This document shows, one piece after another, positions 9,366-52,879 of a DNA stretch of 64,000 nucleotides (positions are counted from its first letter, which is position 1; each line of letters opens with the position of its first letter). The stretch is taken from assembly GCA_963812845.1 (NCBI GenBank), contig CAWEWQ010000001.1:1724496-1788495 (forward strand), given 5' to 3'. Source of the stretch: an uncultured Actinomycetes bacterium. GTDB taxonomy: Bacteria > Actinomycetota > Thermoleophilia > Solirubrobacterales > 70-9. The translations under genes and the position numbers were made by a program. The notes beneath the pieces are model-generated. The model searched no databases. It saw only the letters and a program-made list of their open reading frames with translations, and was not told where the DNA came from.

Positions 9366-9795
9366 CCGCTCTGCGCCGCCCTCGCCCGAGCCGAGGTCGT
9401 CGAGGATCCTCTGGGTGACCCGGCCTGCGTCGAGCTCGGCCGCGAAGTAGAAGGCGGCGTGCTCGAGCAAGCTGCTCGACCGATACACCCTGTCCAGCGG
9501 CCGCCTGCCTCGAAGTCCCGCCAGAGATCCTCCGCCGACCGCGAGCTCGAGCTCGACGTCCTTCTGCGTCTCGCTACCCCGGAGGAAGCTCGGGGTAGGC
9601 CCAGGCGGGCCTGACCGCTGCCGCTGTCCCCCAGGTAGCAGCGAAGCGCGTTCTCCATCCTCAGCGACGAGTCGACGATCGCGGTTTCCGCCCGTCAACG
9701 ACGTCGAATGCGAGCTCGCTCAGGGCAATGGTGACTCGCGCTCTCTGCGCTTTCGTCGCGCGCCAAGCCCAGTTCCTCCCACAGTCATCGCCCAT
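9348..9795 (-). CDS. Hypothetical protein (three frame pieces, function unknown)
   Basis: An ATG near 9795 gives MGDDCGRNWAWRATKAQRARVTIALSELAFDVVDG... Later pieces are MENALRCYLGD.. and ..LLEHAAFYFAAELDAGRVTQRILDDLG. It is convergent with the sigma factor gene and overlaps its 3' end. Confidence 0.2.
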
Positions 9796-9894
9796 CGGTA
9801 CATCGGCCTACCCCTATGACTGGTCTGGCTAACTAGCCCGATCTATTATCTAACCGATCTTCGCACCCCGGCGCAACACCCAAAATCTCGACAC

Positions 9895-10910
9895 TCAGTC
9901 CAGCAGACCCTTCTCGCGCGCGCCGGCGACCGTCTGTCGCAGGGTCTCCGCGGCGTCGTAGCGCGGCTCGCCAGCCCAGCTCCCGCCGCGCCTTCGCGCG
10001 TCCATCAGGACCGGCGTGTCCGCGCGCGCTCGCCCACTCGAGCTTCGAGGAGGCGAAGCTGAGACGGCGGGCGGCCGCGGTGCCGAGGCCGACGGCGAGG
10101 CGCGGAACCGGGATCGAGCGCCAGCCGAGCTCGCGGGCGATGTCGCCGATCCGGACCTCGCCCTCGCCGGCGAGGTTGTAGGCGCCGGGCGGGCCGTCGC
10201 CGCAGATCGCCGCCGCCATCGCCCGGGCGACGTCGTCGTGGTGGACGAGCTGGACCGGGACGCCGGGATCGGGCAGGACCGGGCGTCACCAGCGGCAGCT
10301 TTTCGACCCCCGGCGCAGCAGCGGCACCGGATCGCCGGCGCGCACCGCGTCGACGGTCTGCTCGATCAGCATCGTCGCCCGCGGCCCGGCGACGATGCAC
10401 GGCCGGAAGACGTAGGCCTCCACCCCACTTCCCGGCAGCAGCCGGTCGAGCAACCCCTCGAGCTCTGCCTTCTGGGCCGAGTAGTAGAAGCTCTCGCTGC
10501 CCCGGGCGGGAACGTCCTCGGTCAACGGCTGCGGGTTCTCGGGGTGGAAGCCGTAGGCGGCAACCGAGGAGGCGTAGACCGAGCCGCTGGACCCCGGCGC
10601 GGATCGCCGCCTCGAAGACGTTCCGCGTCCCCTCGAGATTGACCTTCCGCGTCTCCTCCCTGCTCGCCGAAGATCGCAAAGGCAAGGTGCACCGCGACGT
10701 CGACTCCGTCGAACAGCGCCGCCAAGCGCGCCCCGATCGAGAATGTCCCCCCGCCGGTAGCTCGACCTTCGCCCACCCCTCATCAGCAGGATCGAACGGC
10801 CGCCGTGCCATCCCCAGCACGCTCCCCACCTCGTCCCTCCTCTCCAACTCGGCCATCAAAGGCTTCCCGATCTCACCCGTGGGTCCCGTGACTGCGACTT
10901 TCAAAGCCAT
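9895..10910 (-). CDS. NAD-dependent epimerase/dehydratase family protein, frameshifted
   Basis: MALKVAVTGPTGEIGKPLMAEL.. (GxxGxxG), ..VYASSVAAYGFHPENPQP..ESFYYSAQKAELE (YxxxK), ..VFRPCIVAGP... The corrected C-terminus ends ..AGAREKGLLD* at 9895. Confidence 0.7.
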
Positions 10911-10942
10911 CGGGCCATGCTAGTCAGCTATTGCCGGTCAGC

Positions 10943-11024
10943 GGAGGGGGTGGGACTCCCTCGCCAGACACTCAACATCGAGCCATAGCGAGATGTGTCT
11001 GGGGAGGGAGTCCCCCCCCTCCCC
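10943..11024. repeat. Nested-hairpin intergenic repeat, family 1, copy A
   Basis: G-rich arm 10943-10963, 39-nt core 10964-11002 (ccagacactcaacatcgagccatagcgagatgtgtctgg, itself an 8-bp stem with 23-nt loop), C-rich arm 11003-11024. The core is identical to 21991-22029. The element ends 8 nt from the relA stop. Confidence 0.8.
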
Positions 11025-11032
11025 ACACCCCA

Positions 11033-13292
11033 TCAGGCCCCCGGCGTAACCCGATATGCGTCGAACACAGACTCGACGTTGCGAAGCCGGCCGATGCACT
11101 GCTTCAACTGCTCGGTATCCCCCACCTCGACCACGAACTTGTTCTTGACCATCGGGTGATTGGTCGTGCAGGTGGCGCCGATGATGTTGATCCCCGCCTC
11201 CGAGAAGGTGCGCGAGAGGTCCTCGAGCAGACGGGTGCGGTCGTAGGCGTCGATCTGTAGCTCGACCCGGTAGGAGGCCTCGTTTTCGCCCTGCCAGCGA
11301 ACCTCGACGAAGCGCTCCGGCGCGCGTTTCAGCGCCTTGACGTTCTTGCAGTCGGTGCGGTGGATGGTGATCCCGCGGCCGAGCGAGACGTAACCGGCGA
11401 TCTCGTCGCCCGGCACCGGACGGCAGCACTTGGCCAGCCGCACGGCGACGTTGTCGACGCCCTTGACGATGATCCCGTAGTTGGAGGCGTCCTTGGTGCG
11501 CCGAGCCCGGTCCTCGCGCCCGAGCGGCGCCCCGGCGCCGTCCTCCTCGACCCCCTCGCCCGCTTTCAGGCGCTGCATCAGCTTGTTGGCGGCGGCCTTG
11601 GCAGAGACCTTGCCCTGGCCGAGGGCGATGTAGAAGTCGGTCGCTTTGCGGAACCCCATCTCGCGGATCACGTCCGCCAAGCAGGGCCGATCCGGCCACC
11701 TTCTGCATCGGGATGCCGCGGGTGCGCAGAGCTTCCTCGAGCTTTTCGCGGCCGTCGCGCTCAGCGTCCTCGCGGCGCTCCTCTTTGAACCAGGAGCGGA
11801 TCTTGTTGCGGGCGCGGTTGGTCCGCACCAGTTTCAGCCAGTCGAGCGAGGGGCCGCGCTTCTGCTTCGCGGTCAGCACCTCGACGATGTCGCCGGAGCG
11901 CAGCTGGTAGTGCAGCGGCACGATCGAGCCGTTGACCTTGGCGCCGACGCAACTGTGGCCGACGTCGGTGTGGACCGCGTAGGCGAAGTCGAGCGGCGTC
12001 GAGCCGGCGGAGAGGTTCTTCACTTCGCCCTTCGGGGTGAAGACGAAGACCTCGTCCTCGAAGAGGTCGACCTTGAGCGACTCGAGGAACTCGGCCGGGT
12101 CCTGTTCGCCCTCGGCCTCGACCAGCTGGCGCAGCCAGGTCATCTTCTCCCGCTGCGGGTCGCCTTGAGCACCCTCTTTGTAGGCGACGTGGGCGGCGAT
12201 CCCGTACTCGGCCAGCTTGTGCATCTCCTCGGTCCGGATCTGGATCTCCAGCGGTTTGCCCTCGGGCCCGATCACGGTGGTGTGCAGCGCCTGGTACATG
12301 TTGGCTTTGGGCATCGCCACCCAGTCCTTGAAGCGGCCGGGCAGCGGCTTCCAGATCGAGTGGATGACGCCGATCGCGCCGTAGCAGTCTTTGACCGAGT
12401 GGACGATCACCCGCATCGCCGTCAGGTCGAAGATCTCGTTGAACTCGCGGCCCTTCTTCGCCATCTTCGTGTAGATCGAGTAGAAGTGCTTGGCGCGGCC
12501 GGAGATCTCGGCGTCGATCCCGACCTGCTCCAGCTCCTCGGCGAGGAAATCGCCGGCCTCGGTCACGTATTTCTCGCGCTCGTCGCGCTGCTGGGCGACC
12601 AGCTGTTTGATTTCCGCGTACTTGCGCGGGTGCAGGGTCGCGAAGGCGAGGTCCTCGAGCTCCCATTTGATCGCGTGGATCCCCAGCCGGTGTGCCAGCG
12701 GCGCGTAGATCTCCAGCGTCTCGTGCGACTTCAGCGTCTGTTTCTGCTTCGGCAGGGCGCCGAGCGTGCGCATGTTGTGGAGACGGTCGGCCAGCTTGAT
12801 CAGGATCACCCTGACGTCGGTGGCCATCGCCACCATCATCTTGCGGTAGTTCTCCGCCTGCCGCTCGTCGCGGCTCTCGAAGGTGATCCCGGTCAGCTTG
12901 GTGACGCCGTCGACCAACTGGGCGATCTCCTCGCCGAACTCGTCGCGGATCTCGTCCAGGCTCGCAGTCGTGTCCTCGACCGTGTCGTGGAGCAGCGCCG
13001 CGCAGAGAGTCTCGGTGTCGAGCCGCATCCCGGCGCAGATCTGGGCGACCCCGACGGGGTGGGTGATGAACTCGTCGCCCGAGTAACGACGCTGGTCGGC
13101 GTGCCGGTCGCAGGCGAAATCGAAGGCGCGCTCGACCTTGGCGCGGTCGATCGTCGCCACCGCCAGCGCGGTGGCGCCGTTGCCGTTACCGCCGCCGGCT
13201 TCGGTCGCGGCCGAATCGAACTCCTCGATCACCGCGAAGAGATCGGCGAGGAGATCCTTGTGCGCTACCGCGGTTTCGGTCTTTCGAGATAT
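11033..13292 (-). CDS. relA: Bifunctional (p)ppGpp synthetase/hydrolase RelA/SpoT, one frameshift near 11690
   Basis: HD domain: HPVGVAQICAGMRLDTETLCAALLHDTVEDT. Synthetase domain: AKHFYSIYTKMAKKGREFNEIFDLTAMRVIV, ..YQALHTTVIGPEGKPLEIQIRT. TGS and ACT regions follow. The C-terminal piece is ORF 11033-11680. The start is uncertain: GGAGG lies 7 nt before an ATA at 13292. Confidence 0.9.
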
Positions 13293-13356: not shown

Positions 13357-15881
13357 TCACTGAGGATACGACCCGGACGACCCCTGCGCCCCCTTCCGGC
13401 GATCCCTGTAGCGAGGCCGAGCTCGCGCAGTACCCGGAAACGGCGAGCCGCCGCCTCGGGGCAGAGCGGGTAGGCGCCGGACCCGGCCAGCGCCTCCCGC
13501 AACCGGCACCCGCGGGCGTCGCCAGTCTGGCGCAGGGCGCGGTAGGTCTCAGCGACCCCCTCCCGCGTCGCCCACTGCTCGGCCAGCGACCGGACCGCGA
13601 ACTCCAGCTCGGCCTCGCTCCAGAGGACGTGCAGGAAGCCCGGCCGCCGCCTCATCCCATGGGAGGCTCGCCGAAAGCCTCGTCGGAAGCCCCGCGCGGC
13701 GGATCGACGAGGACGACGTGCTCGAAGTCTGCGGCCAGCTCGGGCGCGCGTTCGAGAGCGCGCGAAGTCGGTCAGCGCCAGCCCGCCGCCCTGTCGACCC
13801 GCAAGGGCGGCGATCTCCACGTCCCCGCAGCGATGGCAGGCGATCAGCGCCGCGCCGCCGTTGAACCGCGCAAGCCCGGTGGCACCGTTAGCCAGCGCCG
13901 CCCGCCGCGAAGCGTCCGCGCAGATCGCCAGCACCCCAGCCCCGCTGGAAACCAGCTCCGCAATAGCCACGGTGGCCGGCGCCGAACTTTCGACCAACCG
14001 CCGTCCTCCTTCGCGAGTCCGCGAAAACGGCTCTTCAGGGACCGTTCTCGCGGACTCGGTAACGAGGCCCGCTCCGAGCTCCGATTCGAAGCGTGCCCAC
14101 CAGGCCGCTTCGTCGCGCGAGCAGGCGTGCGGGAGGACGGGCTCCTCGGTGTCCGGCTCCTCCAGCGGATGGAGCTCGCGGAGCACGACCCGGGGCTCGA
14201 CCGAGCCGTTCCAGTGGTTGACCTCGAGGCGGATGCCGGCGTCGAGCAGGTCCTCGTCCTCGACTCCGAGGCCGGTGCGGCCGAAGGCGACTCCGAGGGC
14301 ACGGTGCGAGCCGCTGTGGAGGCTGAAGCGAGAGTGCTTGCCCTCCCCCATCGTCCGCACGTCGCTGACCCGCGCCGACGGGCACCAGCAGCCGCACTCC
14401 GGGGTTGCCCATCCCGAACGGAGCCAGCTGCCGCAGCTCTTCGGCCAGCTCGAGGCCGAGACCGACGCCGCCGACGATCGCGTCGACCTTTTCGGTCCGC
14501 TGCAGGTCCTCCTCGCTCAGCACCTCGTTGGCGTGGGCGGCGAACGCCGCGCCGGAACGCCTCGACGTTCTCGGCCTTGATCTGCAGCCCCGCCGCCGCC
14601 CGGTGCCCGCCGAAGCCCTCGAGGTGCTCGGCGCACGCCTCGAGCGCACCGAGCAGGTCGAAGCCGGAGATGCTGCGCCCGGAACCGCGCCCGTTTCCGT
14701 CCCCGTCCAGCGAGATGACGACCACCGGCCGGCAGTGGCGCTCGACCAGCCGCGAGGCGACGATCCCGACCACGCCGGGGTGCCAGTCCTCGCCGGCCAG
14801 CGACCAGCCCACGCGCTTCCCGCATCTCCTCGGGCAGCTCCCGCCGCGCCGCCTCGGCCGCGGCGTCGACCTCGCGCTCGGTCGCCCGGCGCTCGGAGTT
14901 GGCGCGGCTGAGCTCGACCGCGATCGCCCCGGCCCGCTCGGGATCGTCGGTGAGCAACAGCTCGACACCGGCATCTGCCCGATACAGACGGCCCGCGGCG
15001 TTGATCCGCGGCGCCAGTCGGAAACCGAGATCGCTCTCGTCCAGACCGCTCCGGGTCGCATTTCGAAACCTCCAGCAGAGCACGTATTCCCGGTCGCTGC
15101 GCCCGCCTGATCTCCGCAAGCCCTTTCCGCACAAGCGCGCGGTTCTCACCCACCAGCGGAACCACGTCGGCGACCGTCGCCAGCGCCACCAGGTCCAGAT
15201 CGGGCCCAGAGGCGGCATCAGCAGGACCTACTTGGCTTGTGGGTCCTGCTGATGCCGCCTCCCGCAAAGCGCAGACAAGCTTCCAAGCCACCGCCGTCCC
15301 GCAAAGGGCCTTAAAGGGGTACCCGCTGACTTCGCGGATGCAGGATCGTGCAGTCGGGCAGCGCCGCCGCCTGCTGATGGTGGTCGGTGACGATCACCTC
15401 CATTCCAAGCTCGCCGCGCCAGCGCCACCTCCTCGACGGAGGTGATCCCGCAGTCGACCGTCAGCAGCAGCCGGGTCCCCCGCTCCGCCAGCCGTCTGAC
15501 GTTCTCGGCCGAGAGCCCGTAGCCGTCCTCGAGCCGGTCGGGGATGAACCAGTCGCACTCGGCGCCCAGCACGCGCAGGGTCGAAACCATCAGCGCCGTA
15601 GCGCAGACGCCGTCGACGTCGAAGTCGCCGTGGACGGTGATCCGGTGCCCCGACCCGATCGCGCCGCGAACCCGCTCGACCGCCGCATCCATGCCCGTGA
15701 AGGCCGACGGCGGGTGCGACTCGTCCGCGGCGAGGAAGGAGCGGGCCTGCTCCGGCGTCCGGTACCCCCGGCGGACGAGGGTGACCGCCACCGGGTCGCT
15801 CAGGCCGAGATCCTCGGCGAGGGCATGCGCCTCTGCGTAGGAGTAGGGCTCGACCGCAAATGGGCTGGCACTATCCGGCAC
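13357..15881 (-). CDS. recJ: Single-stranded-DNA-specific exonuclease RecJ, multiple frameshifts; 3' end approximate
   Basis: N-terminus (ORF 15228-15881): ..RITVHGDFDVDGVCATALMV..FIPDRLEDGYGLS..LLLTVDCGITS. Later pieces: ..DLVALATVADVVPLVGENRALV.., ..FRLAPRINAAGRL.., ..HPGVVGIVASRLVE.., ..GFGGHRAAAGL.., ..FGMGNPGV... Confidence 0.8.
15209..15261. repeat. Perfect 20-bp inverted repeat (13-nt loop) inside the recJ coding region
   Basis: gaggcggcatcagcaggacc (15209-15228) pairs with ggtcctgctgatgccgcctc (15242-15261). It is read in frame as ..REAASAGPTSQVGPADAASGP... Confidence 0.85.
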
Positions 15882-20790: not shown

Positions 20791-21380
20791 GCCGCGTTCC
20801 TCGAAGTTCCGGCTTTGCGCAGCGCCGCGGCAACCAGTTCCTCGGGCTCGGAGCCCTCAACCCCGTCGAGGAGCTGCTCGGCCTCCAGCGGCGCGTAGCC
20901 GAGATTGACGAGCCCGTCGCGGGCGAGCGTCCTTGCGTCGCCCTCCGCGGCGCCGACGGCGACCTCCTCCTCCAAGGCCCCGGCCACCTTCTCCCGCAGC
21001 TCGACGATGATCCGTTCCGCGGTCCGTTTGCCGATCCCGGGAACCGCCTGGAAGCGCTTGGCGTCGCCGGCCGCGATCGCCCGCAGGAGATCGCGGTGGG
21101 TGCCGCCGGAGAGGGTCGCGATCGCCACTTTCGGGCCGACGCCGCTGACGGTGATCAGAAGCCGGAAGAGGTCGCGCTCCTCCTCGGAGGAGAAGCCGTA
21201 GAGGGAGAGCGAGTCCTCGCGCGAGATCAGCTCGGCGTGGAGGAAGGCGTCGCGACCGGTGGCGGGTACGGCTTTCAGCGTCTCCGAGGAGACCGTGAGC
21301 CGGTAGCCGACGCCGCCGGCGTCGATGACGACGTGGTCGGGCCGTCGCACCATCACCTCGCCCCGCACCGCGGCGATCAT
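20787..21380 (-). CDS. ruvA: Holliday junction DNA helicase subunit RuvA
   Basis: Intact 197-aa ORF: [45 protein letters not shown] 4-nt overlap occurs at each end with ruvC and ruvB. Confidence 0.95.
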
Positions 21381-21913
21381 CCGGCGATCCGCTCCCCGCG
21401 GCCGGCGGTCGCTTCCTTCGCCACCGCGACAGCGCGCTGGTGGCCGTCGGCGCCACCGTGGCAGATCGCAACGGCCAGAGCGTCGGCGGCGTGATCGGGA
21501 GTCGGCGGCTCCGGCAGCCCGAGCAGGGTGCCGACCATGCGCTGGACCTGCTTCTTGCCGGCCGCGCCGGAGCCGCAGACGGCCATCTTGATCGCCTGCG
21601 GCGTGTAGGCGAAGCAGTCGACGCCATGCTCGGCTGCCGCCAGCATCGCCACGCCGCTGGCCTGGCCGACGGCCATCGCCGAGCGAACGTTCTTGCCGAA
21701 GAAGACCTCCTCGATCGCCATCGCCCGTGGCTCGTGCCAGGAGATCAGCTCCTTCAAAGACCTGTGAATCCGCTCCAGGCGCCGCTCCAGCGGCAGATCG
21801 GGCGTCGTCTCAACCACCCCTCCGTCGAGGGCCACCATCCGGTTCCCCTCCACCCGCACGATCCCAAAACCAAGATTGGCCGCGCCCGGATCGATGCCCA
21901 TCACCACCTGCAT
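21377..21913 (-). CDS. ruvC: Crossover junction endodeoxyribonuclease RuvC
   Basis: Intact 178-aa ORF: VMGIDPGAANLGFGIV..MAIEEVFFGKNVRSA..DHAADALAVAICH. Confidence 0.95.
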   Translation of the reverse strand: MQVVMGIDPGAANLGFGIVRVEGNRMVALDGGVVETTPDLPLERRLERIHRSLKELISWHEPRAMAIEEVFFGKNVRSAMAVGQASGVAMLAAAEHGVDCFAYTPQAIKMAVCGSGAAGKKQVQRMVGTLLGLPEPPTPDHAADALAVAICHGGADGHQRAVAVAKEATAGRGERIAG

Positions 21914-21969
21914 AGGTAGTCATTCTCGGAATCCCATCGGATGCCTGCCGAATCAGGCAATCCGGTCGT

Positions 21970-22052
21970 GGAGGGGGCGGGGGACCTCCTCCAGACACTC
22001 AACATCGAGCCATAGCGAGATGTGTCTGGGGGAGGTCCCCCGCCCCCTCCCC
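21970..22052. repeat. Nested-hairpin intergenic repeat, family 1, copy B
   Basis: Arms 21970-21990 and 22030-22052 form 20 Watson-Crick bp continuous with the 8-bp core stem. The core 21991-22029 is identical to copy A. The element ends 2 nt from the yebC stop and lies upstream of ruvC. Confidence 0.85.
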
Positions 22053-22054
22053 AA

Positions 22055-22804
22055 TCAAGCCGCCAGTTTCTCCAACACGTCCGCCGGAATATCGAAGTTC
22101 GCGTAGACCTCGTCGACGTCGTCCTGATCGTCGAGCGAGTCGAGCAGCTTCAAAACCCGCTCGGCGTCGTGCCCCTTCAGCTCGACGGTGCTTTTCGGCT
22201 CGGTGACCAGGCCCGCCGACTCGACCTCGATCCCTTCGCCCTCGAGAGCTTCGCGCACCGTGGTCAGATCGGTGGGCTCGCAGATCACGCGCAGCTTGCC
22301 CTCGTCCTCGCGCACGTCCTCGGCGCCGGCGTCGATCGCCCCGATCAGGTCGTCCTCGCCATAGCGGCTGCCGTCGACCACGATCGCGCCTTTTTTCTCG
22401 AAGATCCAGGCGACCGAGCCCGGCTCGCCCAGGTTGCCCCCGTGCTTGGAGAACGCGTGCCGGATCTCGGCGCTGGCGCGGTTGCGGTTGTCGGTCAGGG
22501 CCTCGACGAGAACGGCGACGCCCGCCGGCCCGTAGCCCTCGTAGACGATCCTTTCGATCGTCGCGCCGTCGCTTCCGGCACCGGTACCGACATCGATCGC
22601 TTTCTGGATCTTGTCCTTCGGCATCGAGGCGTCTTTGGCCTTCTGGACCGCGGTCGCCAGGGTCGGGTTGCCGCTCGGGTCACCGCCGCCGTCGCGGGCC
22701 GCCACGGTGATCGCCCGCGCCAGCTTGCTGAAGAGCTTGCCGCGTTTGGCGTCGGCGGCGCCCTTCTTGTGTTTGATCGAGTGCCACTTGGAATGTCCGG
22801 ACAT
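22055..22804 (-). CDS. yebC: YebC/PmpR family DNA-binding transcriptional regulator
   Basis: MSGHSKWHSIKHKKGAADAKRGKLFSKLARAI... 249 aa, uninterrupted from the ATG at 22804 within ORF 22055-23218. Confidence 0.95.
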   Translation of the reverse strand: MSGHSKWHSIKHKKGAADAKRGKLFSKLARAITVAARDGGGDPSGNPTLATAVQKAKDASMPKDKIQKAIDVGTGAGSDGATIERIVYEGYGPAGVAVLVEALTDNRNRASAEIRHAFSKHGGNLGEPGSVAWIFEKKGAIVVDGSRYGEDDLIGAIDAGAEDVREDEGKLRVICEPTDLTTVREALEGEGIEVESAGLVTEPKSTVELKGHDAERVLKLLDSLDDQDDVDEVYANFDIPADVLEKLAA

Positions 22805-45505: not shown

Positions 45506-45579
<74 letters not shown>

Positions 45580-49010: not shown

Positions 49011-49082
49011 CTCCGGGGGTGGGACTCGAACCCACAACCTAGCGGTTAACAGCCGCTCGCTCTTCCATTGAGCTACCCCGGA
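49011..49082 (-). tRNA. tRNA-Asn (GTT)
   Basis: TCCGGGGTAGCTCAATGGAAGAGCGAGCGGCTGTTAACCGCTAGGTTGTGGGTTCGAGTCCCACCCCCGGAG is a 72-nt cloverleaf with anticodon loop CTGTTAA. CCA is not encoded. It starts 3 nt after the GT1 stop. Confidence 0.9.
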
Positions 49083-51657: not shown

Positions 51658-51762
51658 CTGAGGGTGCGTGTGACCAAGCAGATCAAGGACGCAGGGAGCG
51701 CTGTGTGCTCTGCACACGAGCGACCGAGGACGCCGATATGCGCCGGTCACACGCACCCTCAG
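51658..51762. repeat. Structured intergenic repeat, family 2, copy 2 (between dgt and dnaG)
   Basis: An 18-bp outer stem 51658-51675/51745-51762 includes the dgt stop codon. Block aagcagatcaaggacgcaggg at 51676-51696. Inner hairpin 51699-51708/51712-51722. Block ccgaggacgccgatatgcgc at 51724-51743. Confidence 0.85.
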
Positions 51763-52812: not shown

Positions 52813-52879
52813 GGGGCGAGGGGGAGGGGTTCGCCGGACCCTCCCCGCTGTTGTCCGCCGAACCCCTCCCCCTCGCCCC
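52813..52879 (-). terminator. Perfect 21-bp G/C-rich hairpin 3 nt after the recO stop
   Basis: ggggcgagggggaggggttcg (52813-52833) pairs with cgaacccctccccctcgcccc (52859-52879) around a 25-nt loop. The G-rich arm style resembles repeat family 1. No U-tract is present. Confidence 0.4.

What the first reader, a model, noticed from the sequence alone, without database searches (positions are those of the whole stretch)
10943..11024. Repeat family 1: nested hairpin with an identical 39-nt core and covarying G/C-rich arms (second copy at 21970-22052)
Two copies lie 11 kb apart and share a 39-nt core that is identical base for base: ccagacactcaacatcgagccatagcgagatgtgtctgg. The core is itself an 8-bp stem with a 23-nt loop. 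The flanking arms of about 20 nt differ between copies (ggagggggtgggactccctcg versus ggagggggcgggggacctcct). In each copy the arm still pairs with its own partner: 20 Watson-Crick bp in copy B, and 19 bp with one bulged T in copy A. A conserved loop with compensatory stem changes points to selection on structure, as RNA or cruciform DNA, and not to a recent duplication. Both copies begin 2-8 nt after the stop of a minus-strand gene (relA, yebC) and lie upstream of the next gene. They could be unusual terminators or 3' stabilisers, a REP/BIME-like mobile family, or a small RNA.
Basis: seen in the sequence. Interest (0 to 1): 0.65.

Follow-up and report, generated by a model that had tools for sequence, protein, structure and literature searches.

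The report
Hairpin repeat family at gene ends
The two hairpins belong to a large, undescribed family of about 100-base palindromic insertions at gene ends in uncultured soil Thermoleophilia, each with a fast-changing but always paired stem under a conserved structured cap that is selected on one strand and probably stops transcription in one direction.

Summary
The 39-nt core is identical at 10964-11002 and 21991-22029. The arms differ but pair.

The two copies belong to a family with hundreds of copies in uncultured soil Solirubrobacterales. I found 112 in 107 genome loci and 126 in 120 metagenome loci. It has no Rfam family and no literature hit.

Each element has a 28-29 bp stem. The outer 20 bp are near saturation with change, yet 97% of cells stay paired. 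The cap has an 8-bp core stem, a 5' UCAA bulge, a covarying 4-bp helix, a tandem G.A, a 2-3 bp helix and a free loop. Other caps sit on the same scaffold, one at window 52813-52879.

Empty orthologous sites show that the whole hairpin was inserted as a unit. It was then mostly inherited vertically.

Wobble pairs mark the + strand as the selected one, and that strand is antisense to relA and yebC. That strand has a G-poor, C-rich 300 nt upstream and no U-tract. The sense orientation is rarer in tight operon junctions.

Best model, about 35% for the mechanism: a domesticated palindromic insertion that acts as a one-directional, factor-dependent (Rho-type) transcription stop. The main rival is a purely selfish REP/REPIN-like element.

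The parts
10943..10963 (+). Copy A, 5' arm of the long stem (GGAGGGGGTGGGACTCCCTCG), locus-specific sequence
   Evidence: Pairs with 11003-11024: 19 bp, one bulged T and a G.G next to the core. The orthologous copies in L063, L071 and L037 have quite different arms that still pair.
10964..11002 (+). Copy A, conserved cap: core stem CCAGACAC/GTGTCTGG, UCAA bulge 10972-10975, helix CAUC/GAUG, tandem G.A (10980-81 with 10990-91), GC/GC helix, CAUA loop 10984-10987
   Evidence: Exact 39-mer. The inner 29 nt are invariant in 98 genome copies, which were selected by an exact 23-mer inside those 29 nt. Helix covariation and the near-invariant GA..GA come from 29 variants in metagenomes.
11003..11024 (+). 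Copy A, 3' arm
11025..11035 (+). Copy A, C-rich 3' trailer and the relA stop codon (TCA on + is TGA on -, 11033-11035)
   Evidence: The 3' flank is C-rich in the family logo. The relA C-terminus has ACT and RelA_AH_RIS domains.
10600..10942 (+). Copy A, G-depleted and C-enriched zone on the + strand 5' of the hairpin. It overlaps the 5' end of the minus-strand epimerase-like gene and contains a CTAG at 10920-10923.
   Evidence: GC skew is -0.20 to -0.39 here. The family-wide dip is -0.14 to -0.19 over about 300 nt.
21970..21990 (+). Copy B, 5' arm (GGAGGGGGCGGGGGACCTCCT)
   Evidence: 20 Watson-Crick pairs plus a T.G wobble with 22030-22050. Orthologues L083 and L064 have diverged arms that still pair.
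21991..22029 (+). Copy B, conserved cap, identical to copy A
22030..22050 (+). Copy B, 3' arm
22051..22057 (+). Copy B, 3' trailer and the yebC stop codon (22055-22057, minus strand)
   Evidence: YebC/TACO1 domains; sequence.
21675..21969 (+). Copy B, G-depleted and C-enriched zone on the + strand. It overlaps the 5' end of minus-strand ruvC.
   Evidence: GC skew is -0.19 to -0.29. RuvC domain.
52813..52879 (+). Related element of the same superfamily with a different cap (CCGGAC-CCTCCCCGCTGTT-GTCCGC), 27-bp arms, 3 nt from the recO stop (minus strand)
   Evidence: CM hit at 38.8 bits; sequence. Eight further copies with this cap lie in other loci. RecO domains.

Best explanation
What it is (shown). 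Both window copies belong to a large family, and a wider superfamily, of palindromic insertion elements of about 95-120 bp. The family is found in uncultured soil Solirubrobacterales (Thermoleophilia).
- Each element is one long hairpin with a 28-29 bp stem. The outer 20 bp or so are free in sequence and change at roughly twice the neutral rate, yet they stay Watson-Crick paired.
- On top sits a conserved cap: an 8-bp core stem, a 5' UCAA bulge, a 3-4 bp helix, a tandem G.A pair, a 2-3 bp helix and a loop of free sequence.
- Elements lie at gene ends, usually 0-17 nt from a stop codon.
- They entered as whole units, because empty orthologous sites lack the entire hairpin. Afterwards they were mostly inherited vertically.
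- Within a lineage, the cap and the inner arm change together across copies (concerted evolution).
- The non-canonical pairs (T.G, then G.A and A.G, almost never C.A) show that pairing is selected on one strand only. In the window that is the + strand.

How it most likely works (inferred). Read as RNA in that orientation, the element is the pause and stop part of a factor-dependent, Rho-type terminator.
- A G-poor, C-rich tract of about 300 nt lies upstream, followed by a very stable hairpin with a protein- or polymerase-binding cap. No U-tract follows.
- It would therefore stop transcription travelling 5' to 3' along the + strand.
- In the opposite orientation, which both window copies have relative to the relA and yebC-ruvC operons, it is tolerated inside tight operon junctions.
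- There it gives the mRNA only a generic hairpin and would block antisense or convergent transcription from running into relA or yebC.

I rate the identity part at about 0.9 and the mechanism part at about 0.35.
For: Family size and range:
- At least 107 genome loci from about 35 MAGs.
- At least 120 soil or rhizosphere metagenome loci.
- No hit in viral contigs.

Stem covariation:
- 97% of cells are paired, against 78.5% in shuffles and 39-56% when the partner column is slid.
- 576 cells show changes on both sides, against 145 in shuffles.
- Stem length is fixed at 28-29 bp.

Cap structure:
- The P2 pair takes U-A, A-U, G-C and C-G.
- GA..GA is kept in about 123 of 126 copies.
- The loop sequence is free.
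- The distant variant L079 875-970 and the larger cap family keep the UCAA/UCAG bulge and the purine-purine internal loop.

Strand:
- In the genome-MAG copies, T.G and G.T mismatches total about 36, against one C.A or A.C. This holds even where both neighbouring genes are on the other strand.
- The metagenome set replicates this, 33 against 4.

Orthologues:
- Both window sites are occupied in 2-3 related genomes whose genes are 80-90% identical.
- In those genomes the cap is identical and the arms are almost randomised.

Gain as a unit:
- 118 shorter orthologous sites against 681 occupied ones.
- The empty sites lack arms and cap together.

Concerted evolution.

Polarity:
- The GC-skew dip lies 5' of the element in every gene-orientation class, mainly at third codon positions.
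- It is also seen in the other cap families, in the window itself and in the metagenome set.
- Where the 5' gene is on the other strand, the dip is present only when the site is occupied: -0.088 against +0.030, n=6.

Orientation in tandem gene pairs:
- 46 antisense copies against 19 sense copies.
- Spacers to the next start codon are longer in the sense orientation: median 62 nt against 26.5 nt, p=2e-4.

No U-tract or canonical terminator.

The layout of a C>G tract followed by a palindrome is the one that Rho-terminator predictors look for (bioRxiv 10.1101/2022.06.01.494293, read).
Against: - There is no RNA evidence at all. The only 'RNA?' runs gave a 174-nt contig that breaks inside the repeat.
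- In roughly a third to nearly half of classified copies, by gene-caller, including both in the window, the selected strand is antisense to both neighbouring genes. No promoter-like motif lies upstream, so transcription of that strand there is assumed, not shown.
- Where the 5' gene is on the same strand, the C-rich tract is equally present in empty orthologues: -0.118 against -0.110. It may therefore pre-exist rather than be an adaptation. It also lies in translated RNA, where Rho loading is hindered.
- The wobble asymmetry is concentrated in the inner arm. That region evolves in concert with the cap, so the asymmetry could be inherited with the unit rather than selected at each locus.
- A constant stem length and several alternative caps are not needed for a pause hairpin.
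- A single-stranded DNA form cannot be excluded, because G.T and tandem G.A are also stable in DNA.
Confidence: 0.45

Rival explanations
1. A purely selfish REP/REPIN- or MITE-like element. The hairpin on one DNA strand is the substrate of a strand-specific transposase (HUH/RAYT-like or other) that recognises the cap. Structure is conserved for mobility, not for the host, and gene conversion between copies keeps old copies uniform. Effects on transcription are side effects that shape where copies survive.
For: - Whole-unit gain and loss at orthologous sites.
- A possible 4-bp CTAG target duplication in three clean junctions: L077/L137, L042/L044 and L056/L196.
- Several cap families share one scaffold, and two families occupy the same site: L039 and L222 against L086.
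- Concerted evolution of the cap plus inner arm.
- Strand-specific structure is independent of gene orientation, as expected for a top-strand DNA substrate.
- Head-to-head pairs resemble BIME/REPIN arrangements.
Against: - No transposase or longer element with the same ends was found in 1.67 Mb of loci. The gene between two copies in L060 is an ordinary phosphoesterase-like protein.
- The arms of non-orthologous copies are no more alike than chance, so there is no sign of recent bursts.
- Most sites are occupied across species (681 against 118).
- The caps stay intact while the arms are randomised, with compensatory changes that preserve the cap's helices across lineages.
- The hairpin is not flush with the putative duplication, and the arms are not conserved terminal repeats.
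- A local 300-nt composition dip is not expected from a transposition substrate.
Confidence: 0.3
2. One reading: ordinary, possibly bidirectional, terminators or 3'-end stabilisers of the gene they follow. Here that would be relA and yebC, acting as RNA on the minus strand.
For: - The element lies 0-17 nt from the stop codon of an opposite-strand gene in most copies.
- Each of two convergent genes can have its own copy.
- The reverse strand also folds strongly, at -68 and -71 kcal/mol.
- TRIT hairpins in Mycobacterium are an actinobacterial precedent, also tightly placed relative to stop codons (PMC3152330).
Against: - On the mRNA strand the non-canonical pairs would be C.A and pyrimidine-pyrimidine, and the tandem G.A would become U.C/C.U.
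- There is no U-tract.
- This orientation is the one preferred inside tight operon junctions, with a median of 26.5 nt to the next start codon. An efficient terminator there would be harmful.
- Closeness to the stop codon can be explained by insertion at or next to stop-codon sequences.
Confidence: 0.12
3. A trans-acting role. Each copy yields a stable hairpin RNA, perhaps cut out by a double-strand-specific RNase, and its common cap titrates or guides one protein. The roughly 30-80 copies per genome would then act together as a sponge or as a family of small RNAs.
For: - The stem has a fixed length and the cap is conserved.
- Lineage-specific cap variants are shared by all copies, as expected if they co-evolve with one partner.
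Against: - No promoter motif was found and there are no expression data.
- The apical loop is free in sequence.
- The strict placement at gene ends and the polar composition would be left unexplained.
Confidence: 0.08

Closest known systems
REP / BIME elements and REPINs with their RAYT transposases (Enterobacteria, Pseudomonas)
   Same: Short extragenic palindromes present in tens to hundreds of copies. They lie at gene 3' ends and between convergent genes, often as inverted pairs. They are species-specific and homogenised within a genome, and they fold as hairpins. (My own knowledge of the family; the context features were tested here.)
   Different: In REPs and REPINs the stem sequence is conserved and the loop or spacer is free. 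Here it is the reverse: the cap is conserved, and the arms are no more alike between copies than chance. There is no 5' GTAG-type motif, and no RAYT gene was found in the DNA held.
TRIT, the conserved terminator-like hairpin of Mycobacterium (RNIE paper, PMC3152330)
   Same: An actinobacterial hairpin motif repeated 147 times in M. tuberculosis. It is tightly positioned relative to stop codons, lacks a U-tail, and its authors suggested that a further factor binds it.
   Different: TRIT is a palindrome with a conserved double-stranded sequence and is restricted to Mycobacterium. It overlaps the coding end at about -8. The element here has a variable stem, an asymmetric conserved cap and a clear strand polarity. 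TRIT predictions overlapped few mapped 3' ends in M. tuberculosis.
MITEs that fold into long RNA hairpins (Correia/NEMIS of Neisseria, ERIC of enterobacteria)
   Same: Non-autonomous insertions of about 100-150 bp at gene borders, with presence/absence polymorphism. Their effects on neighbouring transcripts depend on orientation. (My own knowledge; gain and loss were shown here.)
   Different: MITE terminal repeats are conserved transposase-binding sites and decay without compensation. Here the arms are hypervariable but stay perfectly compensated. The arms are not flush with the putative CTAG duplication. No parent insertion sequence is known.
Rho-dependent terminators (C>G rut tract followed by a pause hairpin)
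   Same: A G-poor, C-rich tract of up to about 300 nt lies immediately 5' of a palindrome, with no U-tract. This is the architecture used by RhoTermPredict, as described in bioRxiv 10.1101/2022.06.01.494293.
   Different: Known Rho terminators are not repeated sequence families and have no conserved cap or fixed stem length. Rho dependence is untested here.

Membership tests
REP / REPIN (RAYT-associated) | The palindrome's stem sequence is conserved among copies of a genome | tested here: not met
   Arm identity between non-orthologous copies equals the expectation from column composition: 0.63 against 0.631 for the inner arm and 0.481 against 0.483 for the outer arm.
REP / REPIN (RAYT-associated) | A conserved tetranucleotide (GTAG-type) lies at the 5' foot of the hairpin | tested here: not met
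   The 5' flank logo is weak, with T at -5 in 48% and A at -1 in 55%. There is no GTAG.
REP / REPIN (RAYT-associated) | A RAYT (Y1 transposase) gene flanked by the repeats is present in the same genome | not testable with these tools
   Only 8-kb pieces of the genomes are held. No gene flanked by inverted arms was found in them.
REP / REPIN (RAYT-associated) | Extragenic, many copies, at gene 3' ends, often in inverted pairs | tested here: met
MITE | Terminal inverted repeats are conserved between copies and match an autonomous insertion sequence | tested here: not met
   The arms are not conserved. No longer element with the same ends was found in 1.67 Mb.
MITE | Direct target-site duplication flanking the insert | tested here: inconclusive
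   In three clean junctions, CTAG (or CTGA/CTAC) lies on both sides of the insert and only once in the empty site. The hairpin is not flush with it, and stop codons confound the CTAG enrichment.
MITE | Presence/absence polymorphism at orthologous sites | tested here: met
   118 shorter sites against 681 occupied sites. The empty sites lack the whole hairpin.
Canonical intrinsic (Rho-independent) terminator | A GC-rich hairpin followed at once by a U-tract | tested here: not met
   T is at most 0.14 at the first 9 positions 3' of the stem, and the 3' flank is C-rich. The reverse strand is followed by UGCCAC-like sequence. The consensus scan finds no terminator at either copy.
Rho-dependent terminator | A C-rich, G-poor tract upstream of a pause site on the transcribed strand | tested here: met
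   GC skew is -0.14 to -0.19 over about 300 nt on the 5' side, in all gene-orientation classes and in two independent data sets.
Rho-dependent terminator | Termination depends on Rho and produces 3' ends at the site | not testable with these tools
   No RNA or Term-seq data exist for a carrier organism.
Any Rfam 15 family | Score at or above the family's gathering threshold | tested here: not met
   The window gives only two tRNAs. Permissive mode on copy A gives only far sub-threshold microRNA-precursor hairpins. Twelve loci with the other cap families gave no hit.
TRIT (Mycobacterium) | Conserved palindromic double-stranded sequence motif, restricted to Mycobacterium | not tested
   No TRIT model was available. 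From the description in PMC3152330, the design (conserved stem) and the host range both differ.

The most novel reading that the evidence does not exclude
A genome-wide system of modular hairpins. A shape-defined scaffold (a 28-29 bp stem of any sequence, plus its flanks) would carry interchangeable structured caps. The caps would be kept uniform across some 30-80 loci by a dedicated or recombinational copying process. The hairpins would serve as orientation-specific, factor-read transcription insulators at gene ends. This would be a new way for a high-GC lineage without U-tract terminators to punctuate its genome, possibly spread by a hairpin-specific mobility mechanism not yet described.
Probability: 0.25. 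Interest if true: 0.85.

Novelty: new variant of a known kind. Interest (0 to 1): 0.7.

Why it matters
High-GC Actinomycetota largely lack canonical terminators, and how their genes are punctuated is an open question. TRIT in Mycobacterium has remained unexplained since 2011.

This family offers hundreds of natural variants of one design, with a clear strand polarity and a conserved cap that could be used as bait for its binding factor. That makes the question directly testable.

It is also an unusually clean natural example of three things:
- a stem evolving at about the neutral rate while staying paired;
- concerted evolution limited to about 50 nt inside dispersed repeats;
- the reverse of the REP/REPIN conservation pattern.

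For annotation, it gives a marker and a covariance model for a widespread soil lineage.

Tried and rejected
- Chance or recent duplication. Rejected: hundreds of copies exist, and the arms are randomised even between orthologues.
- Insertion of the cap into pre-existing terminator hairpins. Rejected as the general rule, because empty sites lack the arms too. One pair, L198/L203, has a short hairpin with the same outer stem at the 'empty' site, which could be an internal deletion.
- Known RNA families. None matched.
- K-turn. The tandem G.A is not next to the bulge.
- Coding mini-ORFs in the caps. The reading frame is not conserved among the copies inspected by eye.
- An own promoter. TANNNT is not enriched on either side.
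- Replication-oriented element. Coding strand over 8 kb is 49:51 relative to the element, and whole-locus skew is only -0.013. The gene-level and 300-nt effects dominate.
- Mutational origin of the composition dip. The main change is G to C at third codon positions, not transitions.
- Phage or plasmid link. No viral contigs matched.
- Autonomous parent element. A 24-bp inverted repeat 2 kb apart in L025 turned out to be two cobalamin-riboswitch-like sequences.
- RNA evidence. Runs X25-X31 hold only contigs that break in the repeat.
- Literature. No paper contains the core sequence or describes such repeats in Thermoleophilia.
- Integron attC sites, retron msd and CRISPR repeats. Considered from my own knowledge and set aside, because their conserved and variable parts are arranged differently, or they occur once per genome.

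Full report
**Observation**

The 39-nt core CCAGACACTCAACATCGAGCCATAGCGAGATGTGTCTGG is present exactly twice in the window, at 10964-11002 and 21991-22029, both on the + strand. No match occurred in 100 shuffles. The flanking arms differ in sequence but pair within each copy.
- Copy B has 20 Watson-Crick pairs plus a T.G wobble.
- Copy A has 19 pairs, a bulged T and a G.G mismatch.

Folding energies on the + strand are -68.5 and -76.8 kcal/mol, with z-scores of -7.7 and -9.95.

Pfam confirms the neighbouring genes, all on the minus strand.
- RelA/SpoT has HD, RelA_SpoT, TGS and ACT domains. It is split by a frameshift near 11680, and its stop is at 11033-11035.
- An epimerase-like gene starts at 10910.
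- YebC has its stop at 22055-22057.
- RuvC occupies 21380-21913.

**A large family**

All were from Solirubrobacterales/Thermoleophilia MAGs, several with many copies per 2.5-2.7 Mb chromosome.

A second scan of JGI metagenomes left the inner 15-22 nt free. It also hit its limit, at 120 soil and rhizosphere loci. Viral contigs gave nothing.

Rfam 15 has no matching family. The permissive search gave only far sub-threshold microRNA-precursor hairpins. The paper library holds neither the sequence nor a description of such repeats.

**Anatomy**

In an ungapped alignment of 98 copies, the central 29 nt are invariant. This conservation is inflated by how the copies were found, since they were selected by an exact 23-mer.

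The 21 pairs below the cap are hypervariable yet paired.
- 97% of cells form a standard pair, against 78.5% in shuffles and 39-56% when the partner column is slid.
- 23 of 28 pairs show changes on both sides.
- 576 cells carry double changes, against 145 expected.

The stem length from cap to foot is tightly 28-29 bp.

The unbiased metagenome set gave 126 copies with 29 cap variants. These resolve the '23-nt loop' into a structured cap.
- A 5' UCAA bulge.
- A 3-4 bp helix whose third pair takes U-A, A-U, G-C and C-G.
- A tandem G.A, kept in about 123 of 126 copies.
- A GC/GC or GCC/GGC helix.
- A loop of free sequence, such as CAUA, AUU, ACG, GCG, AAA or GAA.

A distant variant (L079 875-970) and a family with an 80-nt cap keep the UCAA/UCAG bulge and a purine-purine internal loop.

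**A superfamily**

A covariance model and a hairpin census found 301 long hairpins in the 1.67 Mb held. A listing of the 142 in the first 0.84 Mb showed that nearly all have the same scaffold of G-rich/C-rich arms of about 27 bp. About 100 of those 142 carry this cap, and the 42 without it were read one by one. At least four other caps occur on that scaffold:
- a 13-nt loop, CCTCCCCGCTGTT;
- a module of about 70 nt;
- a module of about 50 nt;
- a module of about 90 nt.

The window holds one of the 13-nt type at 52813-52879, three nt after the recO stop.

**Which strand**

I aligned the two arms without favouring either strand and counted mismatches. In the genome-MAG copies, T.G and G.T together total about 36, against one C.A or A.C. 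This includes copies where both neighbouring genes lie on the other strand. The metagenome set gives 33 against 4.

The remaining non-canonical pairs are A.G, G.A, G.G, U.U and U.C, which is a typical spectrum for a folded single strand. The tandem G.A would become U.C/C.U on the opposite strand. The selected strand is therefore the one shown in this report, which is + in the window.

This strand is antisense to the gene whose stop codon abuts the element. In 67 of 87 classified copies, the 3' side faces the stop of an opposite-strand gene 0-19 nt away. Translations of ten such genes are plainly real proteins.

**Evolution**

*Orthologues.* Orthologues of both window sites carry the element at the same junction: L037, L063 and L071 for copy A, and L064 and L083 for copy B. 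Their genes are 80-90% identical to the window's. The cap is identical and the arms are almost unrecognisable.

*Arm divergence.*
- Arms of non-orthologous copies are exactly as similar as column composition predicts.
- Arms of orthologous copies are only slightly more similar: 0.68 inner and 0.57 outer, against 0.63 and 0.48 expected by chance.
- This fits pairs that change at about twice the neutral rate while being kept complementary. It gives no sign of recent bursts.

*Gain as a unit.* The elements are nonetheless gained as units. 118 orthologous comparisons are shorter, against 681 that are occupied. The empty sites lack arms and cap together. Typically the empty site is a pair of gene ends overlapping at CTAG. 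Three clean junctions have CTAG or a derivative on both sides of the insert and only once in the empty site. This suggests a 4-bp target duplication but does not prove it, because stop codons confound the CTAG enrichment.

*Shared site.* The same site can hold different caps: L039 and L222 against L086.

*Concerted evolution.* Cap variants cluster by contig and lineage. Two loci 666 bp apart both changed loop and inner arm in parallel between L160 and L163, so the cap and inner arm evolve in concert.

**Polarity of the surroundings**

On the selected strand, the roughly 300 nt on the 5' side are G-depleted and C-enriched. GC skew there is -0.14 to -0.19, against about -0.03 further away. The short 3' trailer is also C-rich.

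*The dip is general.*
- It appears whichever way the underlying gene runs.
- It appears in the other cap families and at both window copies.
- It appears in the independent metagenome set.

*It is not generic to gene ends.* It sits mainly at third codon positions, and the main change is G to C rather than a transition. For genes on the same strand, G3 falls from 0.376 to 0.257. For genes on the opposite strand, C3 falls from 0.535 to 0.323.

*Empty orthologues.*
- Where the 5' gene is on the same strand, the dip is already there: -0.118 against -0.110.
- Where the 5' gene is on the other strand, the dip is absent: -0.088 against +0.030, n=6, p=0.006.

*No terminator or promoter signals.*
- No U-tract follows the hairpin on either strand. 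The window region has fewer canonical terminator-like sites than shuffles.
- No -10-like motif is enriched upstream.

*Tandem gene pairs.* Antisense copies outnumber sense copies 46 to 19. Sense copies have longer spacers to the next start codon, with a median of 62 nt against 26.5 nt (p=2e-4). The sense orientation is thus rarer in tight operon junctions.

**Interpretation**

Shown:
- a new family of structured palindromic insertions at gene ends;
- selection on structure on one strand;
- a conserved cap that evolves in concert across copies.

Inferred:
- In the cap-sense direction the element acts as a factor-dependent transcription stop.
- The layout of a C>G tract, a very stable hairpin and no U-tract is the one Rho-terminator predictors look for.
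- The rarity of sense copies in tight operon junctions suggests a polar effect in that direction.
- In the window both copies are antisense, inside the relA-epimerase and yebC-ruvC junctions. For those mRNAs they would be only a generic hairpin, and they would block transcription entering relA or yebC from the far side.

Weak points are the absence of any RNA data, the assumed antisense transcription, and the pre-existing C-richness in same-strand genes.

The main rival is a purely selfish REP/REPIN/MITE-like element, whose hairpin would be a single-stranded DNA substrate kept uniform by gene conversion. It explains mobility, the modular caps and the strand-specific structure. It does not explain the composition dip, the long persistence of intact caps with compensatory changes, or the lack of any recent burst.

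**Comparison with known systems**

The closest known systems are these:
- REP/BIME/REPIN elements, which share the genomic niche but have the opposite conservation pattern;
- TRIT of Mycobacterium, an actinobacterial repeated hairpin at stop codons of unknown role (PMC3152330);
- hairpin-forming MITEs such as Correia and ERIC;
- Rho-dependent terminators.

Membership of each fails on at least one defining feature that I tested. I therefore classify the family as a new variant of the known kind 'interspersed extragenic palindromic elements', not as a member of any named family.

Noticed in passing
window 52813-52879: A second cap family on the same kind of stem: 27-bp arms and the loop CCTCCCCGCTGTT, three nt after the recO stop on the minus strand. 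Eight more copies lie in other loci.
   Followed up: partly
window 51658-51762: A 105-nt palindromic insert with 18-bp arms and a 69-nt centre, sitting in a minus-strand gene junction. The orthologous site in L139 (89.6% identical flanks) is empty and looks like an overlapping stop/start junction. The arms are not of the G-run type.
   Followed up: partly
window 15209-15261: A plain 20-23 bp perfect hairpin with a 7-13 nt loop, inside or at a frame break of the recJ-like (DHH) gene region. An imperfect 31-nt inverted repeat lies at 14000-14072.
   Followed up: no
window 11640-11700 and 9833-10910: relA/spoT is split between two reading frames near 11680, and the epimerase-like gene after copy A also leaves its frame. 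These are probably homopolymer errors of a long-read assembly rather than real pseudogenes.
   Followed up: partly
window 45506-45579 and 49011-49082: Two tRNA genes on the minus strand. They were the only Rfam gathering-level hits in the window.
   Followed up: no
window 9775-9999: A very strong negative GC skew (-0.26 to -0.41) on the + strand near the end of the epimerase-like gene, with no hairpin element found there.
   Followed up: no
L025 3813-3836 and 5797-5820: A 24-bp inverted repeat 2 kb apart turned out to be two cobalamin-riboswitch-like sequences in opposite orientation. It is unrelated to the hairpin family.
   Followed up: partly
L160 341 and 1007; L163 2449 and 3115: Two copies 666 bp apart changed loop (ACG to GCG) and inner arm in parallel between two lineages, while their outer arms stayed different. 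This is a clean case of short-tract concerted evolution.
   Followed up: partly
L198 11906-11990 versus L203 5513-5541: The 'empty' orthologous site holds a 9-bp hairpin with the same outer stem sequence as the full element. It is either an internal deletion remnant or a case of insertion into a pre-existing hairpin.
   Followed up: no
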